A DNA stretch of 47,236 nt from a virus. Taxonomy: Duplodnaviria > Heunggongvirae > Uroviricota > Caudoviricetes. Of the stretch, positions 39,001 through 42,000 are shown one piece after another. The stretch's first letter is position 1. Each line of letters starts with the position of its first letter. The position numbers are program-made. The stretch is taken from IMG/VR virus record IMGVR_UViG_2522572021_000009. The stretch is one strand, 5' to 3'.

Positions 39001-42000
39001 GTCTGACCCAAGTTGAACTTGGCAAGCTTTCTGGCGTAACTGGGGTAACAATAGGATACTGGGAGAAAGATCTAAACGAACCAGGTAGCAAAGCTCTTAG
39101 TAAATTAGCCCTAGCACTAGGCACTACTGAGTCCTATCTCCTGTATGGAGTATCATCACCTGAATCATCCCTTGTGCAGAAAAATCCAGGTACCCAAATC
39201 CCATACCTTTCTTGGGGAGAAGCGATTTCTTTCCTAATATTAAAAGGAGAGAAAACTATGGGAAATGTCGACAGGATCACCACATTCTTTGATGTCAAGG
39301 AGGGAGATTTTGCCGTTTCAATGCCTGATGATACTATGCACAATCCATCAGGGTCCCCAAGCATTCCAGTTGGAGCCACAGTGATCATGAGGCCTGGCGA
39401 AAAATATAAAAATGGTAGCATCGTCGCAGTAATAGTCCCAGATCCACTCACAAACGAACCATCCATGACTATAAAAAAATTAGTTATTGATGGAAAGCTC
39501 GTGTACTTAGCCCCCCTTAACCCACGCTATCAATCATCCTTACTTACACCGGAATGTAACATCGTTGCTGTAGCAAAAGGTGTTCAGTTCAGCCTCTAGC
39601 TCCCGCTTTGCCCTGTAATCAGAGGTCGGCTTTGTCGGCCTTTTATCTTAAAAATATTTATATTCAACTTGACAGCAAAACTAAATATTCTTATATTCAT
39701 TGCAACCCACCCCGCTTCACAGAATGCAGGGCAATACTTCGAGTTACCCGGCAGTGGTCAGGGGTTAAGTAGCCAGCCCGAGGCGTATGAACATGACGGC
39801 GGGAACACTTTGTATAACAGCGCAGCAGGTTTTTAGTTCCGCGACCCGGCGTTAAGGGGGAATGAGGTCAACATGGATACGCTCAATCTTGGCAACAACG
39901 AATCTCTGGTATGCGGCGTGTTTCCCAACCAGGACGGTACGTTCACCGCGATGACGTATACCAAAAGCAAAACGTTTAAAACTGAAGCTGGCGCGCGTCG
40001 CTGGTTAGCCAGAAACACTGACTGATGAGGTTGACGATGGAATTTAAAGATTTACCTCCTTCAATCCAGGAGATTGCAGCACACACACTTCGTCATCGTC
40101 TGAACGAACTTGAATTGGAATCGGTAACGAAAAAAGACACTGATAATATGGCTCGTAATGTGCGCGATGCGTTTACCGGATTGTATTTCTGTGCGTCTAT
40201 AAATAAACACGACTCAGAGAGTGTGGCAAATAAAATTGCAGAAACGACAGCGCAAAACATCAATACGAAACCAACGGAAGAAGAAATTGATCAGTTTGCT
40301 CATGATGCTGGTTTAAAAAACAAGAAAGAAAAATCGCCATATGCGGGGAACATGTTTGTTTATGACAATCTCATCAGAATTCGTGGCGAAATTCCGGCGG
40401 AATACCTGGCAAGAGTCCATCAGGCATTGCTTAAAAATTTGGAAACAGAATTATTTGATGGCAACACTAACGGTTTCTTCATGGTATCAGGCCTTGAGAA
40501 AGACTGGGATGCAGAAAAACGCTGGAATGTTGCTACATGGTTATTCAGTAACAGAGCCGCTGCACTGGAAGCTTCGGCATGTATTTGCGGCCTGTTCTTA
40601 ACAGACCACAAATATAATCTGGATGTGTACAGTTATATTTACGCTGAACACGGTCCACTCTGGATTGACTGGTAATTATAAGGAAACACCAGCAGGGCCG
40701 CGGCGACCAACAGAACGATTAAAATCAATAATGCCATTATAAAGGACATTATTTAATTTATCGTCGAATGCTGATTCTGTGAGCCTCAACTCTGAATGAG
40801 TTTTTAATAACCCTGATTGCCTGAGTTGATTTACCAGGCATTCAATCTGTTTTTCAATAAGCGGATTTCTTTTTTTGTTTGGCATTTTATCCTCCATTGA
40901 GGTTCTGGGTTAAAAATGGAGACCAACACGCTGTCACGTGTGGTCGTGCGCCGGACACGGATAAGAATCCGGTACTGACAGTTTACTGAAAGGATATTTC
41001 CCTGAAAAGTCAGGGCATAACGCGAAAGCGTACGGCGAAGCTCTTTCCCTTAGAAGGCTTGTCGTTAGATTTCTTCGAACGTGCGCTTCCGGTTGTGGCA
41101 CTCCGCGAAATGGCGCGGCGGTAAGTATGGCGGGGTTATTCCTTCCCCGTTGAGGACACCGGGTTGTCAGGTTGACCATACGCTTAAGTGACAACCCCGC
41201 TGCAACGCCCTCTGTTATCAATTTTCTGGTGACGTTTGGCGGTATCAGTTTTACTCCGTGACTGCTCTGCCGCCCTTTTTTAAAAGTGAATTTTGTGATG
41301 CGGTGAATGCGGCTCAGCGCACGCGGAACAGTTAAAACCAAAAACAGTGTTATGGGTGGATTCTCTGTATCCGGCGTTAATTGTTAACTGGTTAACGTCA
41401 CCTGGAGGCACCAGGCACCGCATCACAAAATTCATTGTTGAGGACGCGATAATGGAAAAGTTATCATGTAATGCCAGCACGTCTGAACTTCGTTTCGAAA
41501 TTGGCGTTATCACTGGAGACAAAACATTTATTGAAGACGCCATTAAGCAGAGAAAACTCGAGCAGGACCTGTTAAATGAAGTATGCATTCCTTCAATGCT
41601 GGCTCGTCTGGACCTGCTGCAAAAAGGATATAAACAATGAATACAACATTTGCACTCGTTCTGACAGTTTATCTTGTTTCCGGCGAATCTCTTGAGCTGG
41701 TGACTGGCTTATACGGTTCAATGAAAGAATGCATGGCTGCAGCAGCAGAACAAAAAATTCCCGGTAACTGTTATCCGGTAGATAAAACTACTCACACTAA
41801 TAATAACGAAATACCGGCAGGACTTTAAAACAGCACCGTAATTAATATCCGGTTTCATTTTTATATGCCAGCAATGGCAGGGATTTGTTCACCCTTAAAT
41901 CTGTAATGAGGTTAAAACAAAATGAGTAAAGTCTTTATTTGCGCCGCCATTCCGGACGAACAGGCAATAAAAGAAGAGGGCGCAGTTGCTGTAGCCACTG

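What the first reader, a model, noticed from the sequence alone, without database searches (positions are those of the whole stretch)
41222..41433. DicF sRNA followed by a perfect 19-bp inverted repeat spanning 109 bp before dicB
The DicF sequence is intact with its T-tract, and immediately downstream a perfect 19-bp inverted repeat brackets the leader of dicB. As RNA these arms would form a long perfect duplex, a plausible RNase III processing site or a translational lock on dicB. It shows the dicF-dicB division-inhibition module is complete here, unlike the decayed Qin copy in K-12.
Basis: partly seen in the sequence, partly recalled or inferred. Interest (0 to 1): 0.5.

Follow-up and report, generated by a model that had tools for sequence, protein, structure and literature searches.

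The report
Known RNase III stem between dicF and dicB
The repeat is real, but it is the already-known RNase III processing helix between the DicF small RNA and the division inhibitor gene dicB; E. coli K-12 has the same helix, so the only modest news is that it encloses a folded RNA related to the prophage sRNA STnc100.

Summary
DicF lies at 41223-41275 (Rfam 76.7 bits) with a T6 tract. A perfect 19-bp inverted repeat (41287-41305 / 41416-41434, 110 nt apart) follows, and dicB starts at 41452.

- As + strand RNA the arms form the outer helix (P1) of a five-helix leader. P1 extends to 28 bp and is kept in 129 related loci through G.U wobbles and compensatory changes.
- Papers on the near-identical K-12 sequence report an RNase III-made 3' end giving a 72-nt DicF. 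That end maps inside the 5' arm. An rnc-versus-wild-type RNA-seq table lists a dicF-dicB site lying between the arms. The RNase III idea is therefore correct but already known.
- The "translational lock" is plausible only for dicB-type copies. There the terminator U-tract pairs with the dicB Shine-Dalgarno in thermodynamic models. It does not hold for copies upstream of kilR or Ash-family genes.
- The claim that K-12 Qin is decayed is wrong. K-12 has identical dicF, the same helix (two G.U pairs) and intact dicB.

Beyond the finding, the enclosed domain is related to STnc100. The same cassette follows KilS before kilR in Rac and precedes other genes. Novelty is low and interest modest.

The parts
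41223..41275 (+). DicF sRNA (53 nt), whose 3' stem-loop is an intrinsic terminator hairpin
   Evidence: Rfam RF00039 at 76.7 bits, 41224-41275. Identical to K-12 dicF b1574.
41276..41286 (+). Terminator U-tract (T6) plus AAAAG. In read-through RNA this is the outer extension of the P1 5' strand and pairs with UUGUUGAGGA, which includes the dicB Shine-Dalgarno.
   Evidence: Sequence. RNAduplex gives 28 pairs with one bulge on each strand. Ensemble pairing probabilities.
41287..41305 (+). P1 5' arm, the perfect 19-nt core. The inferred RNase III cut lies after 41296, by homology to the 3' end of the K-12 72-nt DicF.
   Evidence: 72-nt species: PMC5069750 and PMC9438474. The mapping onto the window is my inference.
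41309..41324 (+). P2 hairpin (GCGGC...GC.CGC)
   Evidence: RNAalifold consensus and pair counts, 99.1% of cells paired.
41325..41372 (+). P3 (41325-41327 with 41370-41372) closing a hypervariable insert (41328-41369). The insert differs in sequence and in length, by non-multiples of 3, between loci.
   Evidence: Alignment A3. Two of the three P3 pairs show changes on both sides that keep the pair. Leader lengths range from 149 to 188 nt.
41373..41399 (+). P4 hairpin (GGCGUUAAU / GUUAACGUC)
   Evidence: 9 pairs, 98.8% of cells paired, 2 pairs with compensatory changes.
41401..41415 (+). P5 hairpin CCUGG-AGGCA-CCAGG. It was invariant here by construction, because it was the search anchor. The same hairpin occurs in STnc100 as CCGGGAGGCACCCGG.
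41416..41434 (+). P1 3' arm, the perfect 19-nt core. The inferred partner RNase III cut lies between 41426 and 41427 (2-nt 3' overhang rule), which would leave a 25-nt dicB 5' UTR.
   Evidence: Overhang rule and the G-C pair between the cuts: PMC6212723. The cut position is inferred.
41435..41451 (+). Outer extension of the P1 3' strand, containing the dicB Shine-Dalgarno GAGGA (41440-41444), then a 7-nt spacer
41452..41640 (+). dicB (62 aa), cell division inhibitor
   Evidence: RefSeq annotation of the identical record. PF05358 and NF049927 both above cut-off.
41637..41828 (+). ydfD-like DUF1482 gene. Its start overlaps the dicB stop (ATGA).
28219..28419 (-). Bona fide STnc100 sRNA in the late region of the same prophage. 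It is a structural relative of the dicB leader core, but has only an 8+3-bp closing helix.
   Evidence: Rfam 148.1 bits. The leader model R1 hits 28275-28390 at 52.3 bits.

Best explanation
The two arms are the outer helix (P1) of a structured roughly 175-nt leader RNA. The leader lies between the DicF terminator and dicB in the early-left (dicB) operon of a Qin/Rac-type lambdoid prophage of E. coli O145:H28.

Proposed sequence of events:
- Most transcripts stop at the DicF terminator. RNase E then trims them to give the 53-nt DicF.
- Transcripts that read through make the leader, and P1 forms. P1 is 19 perfect bp here and 28 bp when the terminator U-tract and the dicB Shine-Dalgarno region are included.
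- RNase III cuts both strands of P1. This creates the longer DicF isoform (72 nt in K-12, 74 nt here because of two extra bases). It also separates the dicB-ydfD mRNA, which is left with a short 5' UTR.
- In dicB-type copies the cut should also free the Shine-Dalgarno from the base of the helix.

What rests on what:
- Shown here: the helix exists and is conserved at the RNA level, and its interior is related to STnc100.
- From the literature on the near-identical K-12 sequence: RNase III dependence and the 72-nt 3' end.
- Inferred: the exact cut positions in this strain, the partner cut, and any effect on dicB translation.
For: Local structure:
- DicF and the helix are present.
- The fold of 41200-41470 has a z-score of -5.4 against shuffles and contains P1 with four inner helices.

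Comparative support:
- 64 distinct leaders give the same five-helix consensus.
- 96.6% of cells are paired, against 33-42% when the partners are slid.
- 27 cells in 6 pairs have changes on both sides that keep the pair, with 0 of 500 shuffles reaching this. Two of those pairs are in P1 (U-A to C-G, A-U to G-C).
- Nearly all of the 131 leaders keep at least 20 pairs in P1.
- Mismatches are mostly + strand G.U rather than A.C. By unique cells the count is 19 against 9. By loci my tally is roughly 90 against 14.

RNase III:
- K-12 Qin carries the same leader.
- The reported RNase III-made 72-nt DicF 3' end falls at position 20 of the 29-nt 5' strand. The two base pairs between the inferred cuts are then U-A and G-C, as in the in-vivo rule of PMC6212723.
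- Table S1 of PMC5371410 lists 1649470 'dicF-dicB', with 0 and 0 wild-type reads against 26 rnc-mutant reads, marked as known. That position lies between the P1 arms.
- The review PMC2777011 lists the dicA-dicF-dicB intergenic regions as RNase III substrates.

Translation: Shine-Dalgarno pairing drops from 0.71-0.98 to 0.0-0.47 without the 5' arm.
Against: - No cleavage data exist for this strain.
- I could not read the primary paper (Faubladier 1990). The 72-nt end is placed from secondary citations and from the annotated 53-nt gene, with an uncertainty of a few nucleotides.
- Ragunathan 2023 describes only the upstream RNase III site, which makes the 5' end of the 190-nt species.
- The RNA-seq evidence is only 26 reads, and that method's positions are coarse.
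- Shine-Dalgarno occlusion depends on weak U.G and U-A pairs and is absent in the kilR and Ash-type copies. Translational control therefore cannot be the conserved function.
- The strong conservation of the inner helices P2-P5 is not explained by a simple processing site.
Confidence: 0.8

Rival explanations
1. The helix is mainly the closing stem of an autonomous structured RNA of the STnc100/PasD kind. On this reading the enclosed core is the functional product, either an sRNA or a cis-acting domain for the downstream 'kil' gene, and RNase III cutting is incidental or merely releases it.
For: - The leader hits Rfam STnc100 below threshold in every copy tested (34-40 bits; 37.4 bits and E 1.9e-6 here).
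- The leader model hits the window's true STnc100 at 52.3 bits, E about 2e-13.
- P2-P5 are conserved and covary.
- The cassette is kept upstream of unrelated genes: dicB, kilR, Ash-family and ydaE-like.
Against: - True STnc100 has a short closing helix (8+3 bp) and its own terminator. The leader has neither feature in that form. Its helix is lengthened to at least 20 bp, as an RNase III substrate would need.
- In K-12 RNA-seq the interior of the leader has 0 reads in wild type against 26 in the rnc mutant. This argues that the excised core does not accumulate.
- No function is known for STnc100 itself.
Confidence: 0.15
2. The sequence is a conserved module junction, or 'linker', of mosaic lambdoid prophages. 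On this reading it is kept nearly identical because recombination between different sRNA modules and different kil modules passes through it, not because of RNA function.
For: - Several combinations of upstream sRNA type (DicF, KilS-like, a third type) and downstream gene (DicB, KilR, Ash, YdaE-like) occur. The leader is far more conserved than its flanks.
- dicB itself is visibly more diverged than the leader in the window-versus-K-12 alignment.
Against: - A recombination linker would not show compensatory base changes, or a bias for G.U over A.C in one strand.
- The middle of the leader is hypervariable while the paired parts are kept.
- This reading can coexist with the RNA function rather than replace it.
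Confidence: 0.04
3. A DNA-level element: terminal inverted repeats of a miniature transposable element, a cruciform, or a palindromic protein-binding site.
For: A perfect 19-bp inverted repeat bracketing about 110 bp looks like a MITE. The sequence is present in many copies per genome (median 2, up to 9 places).
Against: - There is no target-site duplication. The flanks are TTAAAAG and TTGTTGA.
- Nearly every copy found sits at the same place, right after an sRNA terminator and before a kil-type gene.
- The DNA palindrome is imperfect in most copies but pairs as + strand RNA.
- The minus strand scores 40 bits against 209 for the leader model, and the inner helices are broken on that strand.
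Confidence: 0.01

Closest known systems
dicF-dicB intergenic RNase III site of the K-12 Qin dicB operon (Faubladier, Cam and Bouche 1990; cited in PMC5069750, PMC9438474, PMC2777011, PMC5371410)
   Same: It is the same locus. dicF is identical, and the leader differs by two transitions in the arms, one further substitution and a 2-nt indel. The order is the same: ydfA-like gene, dicF, leader, dicB, ydfD.
   Different: - Here both arm positions are C-G, so the DNA repeat is perfect. K-12 has two adjacent G.U pairs.
- An extra T and an extra A in the tract make the long DicF isoform 74 nt instead of 72.
- DicB is substantially diverged.
- The upstream genes and the repressor differ: here a LexA/CI-type repressor rather than DicA.
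- The prophage is more complete downstream, with an intact exonuclease, xis and int.
KilS sRNA / kilR 5' UTR of prophage Rac (Bar et al. 2021, PMC8175672)
   Same: The architecture is the same: an sRNA ending in a GGCGG...CCGCC terminator with a U-tract, then the same leader (163 bits to model R1 in K-12 Rac), then a small division inhibitor. KilS scores 39 bits on the DicF model, below the threshold of 48.
   Different: - The sRNA 5' (seed) part is different and the downstream gene is unrelated (the FtsZ inhibitor KilR).
- P1 has a 1-nt bulge and one G.U pair.
- Its Shine-Dalgarno is not sequestered in models.
- The only rnc-dependent RNA-seq peak listed there lies 8 nt upstream of the KilS 5' end, not in the leader.
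STnc100 (Rfam RF02076) / PasD prophage sRNAs
   Same: - A shared core: ...GGUGAAU, a GC-rich hairpin, a variable part, a hairpin, then CACCnGGAGGCACCnGGCACC before the 3' strand of the closing stem.
- Reciprocal covariance-model hits.
   Different: - The leader is below the Rfam gathering score.
- It has no terminator of its own.
- It sits in the early-left operon rather than the late region (downstream of stx, or of a methylase as here, and upstream of the nanS-like esterase).
- Its closing helix is 19-28 bp rather than 8-11 bp.
RNase III sites that punctuate phage polycistronic early RNAs and gate translation (lambda N leader, lambda cIII, T7 early mRNAs); named from established knowledge, with cIII mentioned in PMC2777011
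   Same: A long intramolecular duplex in a leader next to a ribosome-binding site in a phage early transcript. Cleavage or binding changes access to the ribosome-binding site.
   Different: There is no sequence relation. The effect on dicB translation is untested. Here the site also sets the 3' end of a trans-acting sRNA.

Membership tests
DicF RNA (Rfam RF00039) | Covariance-model score at or above the gathering threshold (48 bits) over the full model | tested here: met
   76.7 bits, model positions 1-52 of 52, E 2.7e-15.
DicF RNA (Rfam RF00039) | 3' stem-loop followed by a U-tract (intrinsic terminator), and a location upstream of dicB in a prophage dicB operon | tested here: met
   Hairpin in the Rfam alignment and T6 at 41276-41281. 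dicB lies 176 nt downstream. The simple terminator scanner did not list the hairpin; I attribute that to its 3-8 nt loop limit.
E. coli RNase III processing site | Intramolecular double-stranded RNA of about two helical turns (at least about 20 bp) | tested here: met
   19 perfect bp, 28 bp with one bulge on each strand. Duplex energy about -37 kcal/mol. Conserved in 129 loci.
E. coli RNase III processing site | RNase III-dependent RNA ends mapped in the helix | not testable with these tools
   Evidence comes only from the literature on the near-identical K-12 sequence. The 72-nt DicF 3' end maps to the 5' arm. An rnc/WT read-ratio peak at 1649470 lies between the arms. No data exist for this strain.
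E. coli RNase III processing site | Staggered double cut with 2-nt 3' overhangs, and the two positions between the cuts paired with at least one G-C (PMC6212723) | tested here: inconclusive
   If the 5'-arm cut is after U20 (41296), the two intervening pairs are U-A and G-C, which fits the rule. However, the cut position is inferred and the 3'-arm cut is unmapped.
STnc100 (Rfam RF02076) | Score at or above the gathering threshold (47 bits) | tested here: not met
   37.4 bits, model positions 21-154 of 206. Other leaders score 34-40 bits. The leader is related to STnc100 (reciprocal hit of 52.3 bits) but is not a member as Rfam defines the family.
STnc100 (Rfam RF02076) | Stand-alone sRNA with its own intrinsic terminator | tested here: not met
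   The leader runs directly into the dicB ribosome-binding site with no terminator. The true STnc100 at 28219-28419 has one.
DicB protein (PF05358 / NF049927) | Profile score above the curated cut-off, full length | tested here: met
   PF05358 131.8 bits (cut-off 27); NF049927 123.7 bits (cut-off 100); residues 1-62.
Miniature inverted-repeat transposable element | Terminal inverted repeats plus target-site duplication and dispersal to unrelated sites | tested here: not met
   Inverted repeats are present, but there are no flanking direct repeats. Almost all copies sit in the same terminator-leader-gene context.

The most novel reading that the evidence does not exclude
The repeat may close a portable regulatory cassette rather than being only a processing site.

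The cassette would be an STnc100/PasD-related RNA domain placed immediately after a DicF- or KilS-type sRNA terminator and in front of whichever toxic early gene the prophage carries (dicB, kilR, Ash-family, ydaE-like).

On read-through, RNase III would excise the roughly 130-nt core. The core, or the act of excising it, would then control expression of the downstream gene or act in trans as an sRNA. The 72/74-nt DicF tail (19-21 nt complementary to the dicB 5' UTR, duplex about -11 kcal/mol) could stay paired to the dicB ribosome-binding site.

The homology and the modular distribution are shown here. The function is not.
Probability: 0.2. Interest if true: 0.55.

Novelty: already known. Interest (0 to 1): 0.25.

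Why it matters
As stated, the finding adds another, near-identical copy of a processing site described in K-12 in 1990, so it changes little.

Two by-products may be useful to people working on prophage sRNAs.

1. The DicF-leader-dicB unit in Qin and the KilS-leader-kilR unit in Rac are the same three-part design, and their parts are exchanged between prophages. I found no paper stating this in the literature I could read, and the paper that named KilS does not mention DicF.

2. The leader core is related to STnc100/PasD, a widespread prophage sRNA of unknown function. This gives that family a second, genetically tractable context.

If RNase III cutting gates DicB synthesis, it would add a post-transcriptional safety layer to a toxic division inhibitor.

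Tried and rejected
Considered and rejected:
- Coding potential inside the leader. The 97-aa in-frame extension of dicB from GTG 41347 and the 26-aa ORF at 41307 are rejected. The region they cross is hypervariable, with length changes that are not multiples of 3.
- An internal promoter for dicB. Only weak 9-of-12 consensus matches were found, no more than in shuffles.
- A MITE or other DNA palindrome. Rejected; see the rival explanations.
- A role for the minus strand. The leader model scores 40 bits there against 209 on the + strand, the inner helices are broken, and no Rfam family matches.
- Shine-Dalgarno sequestration as the conserved function. Rejected after modelling the kilR and Ash-type copies.
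- A terminator just upstream of the true STnc100, as a parallel to DicF. None is evident.

Led nowhere:
- Primary papers not held: Faubladier 1990 (PubMed 1691299), Cam 1988, Faubladier and Bouche 1994 (PMC205167) and Conter 1996 (PMC178304).
- The supplementary cleavage table of PMC6212723 is not held.
- Because of these gaps I cannot exclude that the Qin/Rac leader similarity was already noted in the 1990s papers.
- The alignment A3 misplaces a 1-nt bulge in seven Ash-type rows. This inflates the 'unpaired' counts. I recounted the arms separately.
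Full report
**1. What is there**

The window matches a prophage of E. coli O145:H28 RM12581 at 100%.

Rfam places DicF at 41224-41275 on the + strand (76.7 bits, gathering score 48). The sequence is identical to K-12 dicF, so the 53-nt gene is 41223-41275. A T6 tract follows at 41276-41281.

The inverted repeat is real. Its arms are 41287-41305 and 41416-41434, perfect over 19 bp, with 110 nt between them. It is the strongest close-range inverted repeat in the 47-kb window. By my arithmetic about 7e-5 such repeats are expected by chance.

dicB is 41452-41640 (PF05358 131.8 bits; NF049927 123.7 bits). A DUF1482/ydfD-like gene follows at 41637-41828.

The surrounding order is: CI/LexA-type repressor, DUF1391 (ydfA-like), a 216-aa ORF, a small minus-strand ORF, dicF, leader, dicB, ydfD-like, exonuclease, xis, int. 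This is the early-left operon of a lambdoid prophage.

**2. The repeat is an RNA helix, and it is longer than 19 bp**

Folding 41200-41470 as RNA gives the DicF hairpin, then a long helix made by the two arms that encloses four smaller helices (z = -5.4 against shuffles).

RNAduplex extends the helix to 28 pairs with one bulge on each strand. The DicF terminator U-tract plus AAAAG pairs with UUGUUGAGGA, which contains the dicB Shine-Dalgarno GAGGA at 41440-41444.

To collect relatives I scanned public genomes and viral contigs for the invariant inner hairpin CACCTGGAGGCACCAGGCAC:
- 17 genome loci were found (E. albertii, E. ruysiae, Shigella, Citrobacter, and STnc100-like copies in Pantoea and Erwinia).
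- At least 120 viral contigs were found.
- Together these gave 131 leaders and 67 distinct sequences.

On 64 distinct leaders, RNAalifold returns five helices:
- P1: the arms.
- P2: 41309-41324.
- P3: 41325-41327 with 41370-41372, closing a hypervariable insert.
- P4: 41373-41399.
- P5: 41401-41415.

For this structure the pair counts are as follows:
- 96.6% of cells are standard pairs, against 33-42% when the 3' partners are slid by 1-3 columns.
- Six pairs carry changes on both sides that keep the pair (27 cells; 0 of 500 shuffles reach this).
- Two of those six pairs are in P1 (U-A to C-G, and A-U to G-C).

A separate recount of the arms corrects a misaligned 1-nt bulge:
- Only 24 of 129 leaders are fully Watson-Crick over the 19 bp.
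- Most carry one or two G.U pairs.
- A.C mismatches, which would be G.U on the other strand, are rarer: 19 against 9 unique cells. By loci my tally is roughly 90 against 14.

What is conserved is therefore pairing in + strand RNA, not a DNA palindrome. The perfect repeat in this window is one allele among many.

**3. K-12 has it too**

That is wrong.

In K-12 MG1655, dicF (1649382-1649434) is identical. The leader (1649434-1649607) scores 207.7 bits on the leader model, and dicB (1649609-1649797) is intact.

K-12 differs in the arms by two C-to-T changes, one in each arm. These give two adjacent G.U pairs.

What is decayed in K-12 Qin lies downstream: a truncated exonuclease, IS2, and a truncated integrase.

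**4. RNase III**

- Two papers citing Faubladier et al. [quoted passage not shown]
- Counting 72 nt from the annotated K-12 5' end lands on the U of UUUUGU|GAUG. This is position 20 of the 29-nt 5' strand of P1, equivalent to 41296 here. An uncertainty of a few nucleotides in the ends keeps it inside the arm.
- With the 2-nt 3' overhang rule, the partner cut falls between 41426 and 41427. That leaves dicB a 25-nt 5' UTR.
- The two pairs between the inferred cuts would be U-A and G-C, as the in-vivo rules of PMC6212723 favour. These positions are inferred.
- Independent support comes from Table S1 of PMC5371410. It lists 1649470 "dicF-dicB" with 0 and 0 wild-type reads against 26 reads in the rnc mutant, flagged as a known site. 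That coordinate lies between the P1 arms. The method reports peaks of a coverage ratio, so its position is coarse.
- The review PMC2777011 lists the dicA-dicF-dicB intergenic regions among RNase III substrates.
- Ragunathan et al. 2023 describe a second RNase III site upstream, which makes the 5' end of the 190-nt DicF species. The window is almost identical to K-12 there as well.

I could not read the 1990 paper itself.

**5. Translational lock**

In partition-function models the dicB Shine-Dalgarno behaves as follows:
- In this window's read-through RNA it is paired with probability 0.71-0.98. When the RNA starts at 41427 or lacks the 5' arm, the probability is 0.11-0.47.
- In K-12 Qin the values are 0.81-0.96 in the read-through RNA and 0.00 after the cut, taken over the GAGG core.
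- In the Rac kilR copy the Shine-Dalgarno is largely free in the full-length RNA. In an Ash-type copy it lies well away from the helix and is free.

A lock that RNase III opens is thus a reasonable hypothesis for dicB-type leaders. It cannot be the conserved purpose of the element. It rests on weak U.G and U-A pairs and on thermodynamic models only.

**6. What the helix encloses, and where else it occurs**

- A permissive Rfam scan hits the leader with STnc100 (RF02076) at 37.4 bits. This is below the gathering score of 47, with E 1.9e-6 and model positions 21-154.
- Six other leaders score 34-40 bits.
- Reciprocally, a covariance model built from the leaders (R1) hits the window's true STnc100 (28275-28390, minus strand) at 52.3 bits.
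- The two share the GGUGAAU junction, a GC hairpin, a variable part, a hairpin, and CACCnGGAGGCACCnGGCACC before the closing strand.
- True STnc100 has only an 8+3-bp closing stem, has its own terminator, and lies in the late region.

The leader is therefore a relative of STnc100, not a member, with a closing stem lengthened to RNase III size.

The same cassette sits in Rac. In K-12, the annotated sRNA KilS (1418405-1418502) ends in the U-tract directly before a leader copy (163 bits), which is followed by kilR. KilS scores 39 bits on the DicF model.

Across the collected loci the upstream sRNA type (DicF seed, KilS-like, a third type) and the downstream gene occur in several combinations. The downstream genes are:
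- DicB;
- KilR (NF008465);
- an Ash-family protein (PF10554);
- a 94-aa YdaE-like protein.

The papers I could read on KilS and on STnc100/PasD do not mention this relation. The Bouche-lab papers of 1994 and 1996 could not be read.

**7. Rivals**

- Core as the functional product: the enclosed core, rather than the cut, may be what matters. I give this about 0.15. It is favoured by the conserved inner helices. It is disfavoured because wild-type cells show no reads in the leader interior.
- Recombination linker: this fits the module shuffling but not the compensatory changes.
- MITE or DNA palindrome: excluded by the absence of target duplications, the fixed context, and strand-specific wobble pairs.
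- Coding potential and internal promoters: no support was found.

**8. Verdict**

The element is an already-known RNase III processing helix of the dicB operon, present and functional-looking in K-12 as well.

The incremental points are the STnc100 relationship, the shared DicF/KilS cassette, and the dicB-specific pairing with the Shine-Dalgarno. These merit a note but not a high score.

Noticed in passing
window 28219-28419 (-): A full STnc100 sRNA (148 bits) lies between a DNA methylase ORF (28499-29557) and a 648-aa ORF that I take to be a nanS-like esterase (26049-27995; not checked against a family library), in the late region. Immediately after its terminator there is a convergent terminator-like hairpin on the + strand (about 28185-28222). 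This recalls the sRNA 'dyads' described for EHEC prophages.
   Followed up: partly
L144 (K-12 Rac) 306-403 (-) = NC_000913.3 1418405-1418502; also L003 2451-2506: The annotated sRNA KilS is the positional counterpart of DicF. It has the same terminator core (GGCGG...CCGCC plus a U-tract), scores a sub-threshold 39 bits on the DicF model, and is followed by the same leader. The paper that named KilS does not mention DicF.
   Followed up: partly
NC_000913.3 1418510 (K-12 Rac, kilR-sieB intergenic): Table S1 of PMC5371410 lists an rnc-dependent coverage peak (0 and 0 wild-type reads against 41 in the rnc mutant) 8 nt upstream of the KilS 5' end. This parallels the upstream RNase III site that makes the 190-nt DicF species.
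   Followed up: no
L021 (Citrobacter braakii) 5208-5630 (-): Here the leader is followed on the same strand by isrK (67.5 bits) and a C4 antisense RNA (80.2 bits), before an Ash-family gene. This is a P1 immI-like module placed behind the same cassette.
   Followed up: no
window 41328-41369 and alignment A3 columns 52-108: The part of the leader closed by P3 is hypervariable. At least six unrelated insert sequences of different lengths occur, some with their own hairpins, while everything around them is nearly invariant. This is reminiscent of exchangeable sRNA seed regions. It is unexplained.
   Followed up: partly
window 32429-32754 (-): A sok antisense RNA (117 bits) lies next to a 70-aa ORF containing a hydrophobic stretch that resembles Hok toxins. 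This would be a hok/sok-type toxin-antitoxin locus inside the prophage. The ORF was not checked against a family library.
   Followed up: no
window 32995-34489 (+): Two adjacent ORFs look from their sequence like a eukaryote-type Ser/Thr protein kinase (264 aa) and a PP2C-like phosphatase (238 aa). They lie between the sok locus and the early region. Neither was scanned against any family library.
   Followed up: no
window 38955-39599 (+): The repressor next to the operon is annotated as a 214-aa LexA-family (CI-like) protein, not a DicA homologue. If so, this copy of the dicB operon may be SOS-inducible, unlike K-12 Qin, where DicA lacks the cleavage site (PMC10448788).
   Followed up: no
window 41223-41233 versus 41398-41417: The DicF 5' seed (UUUCUGGUGAC) is complementary to two overlapping 6-nt stretches (GUCACC, CACCAG) around the invariant P5 hairpin of its own leader. 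This is probably chance, because the same hairpin follows KilS-type sRNAs that have a different seed. It was not tested statistically.
   Followed up: no
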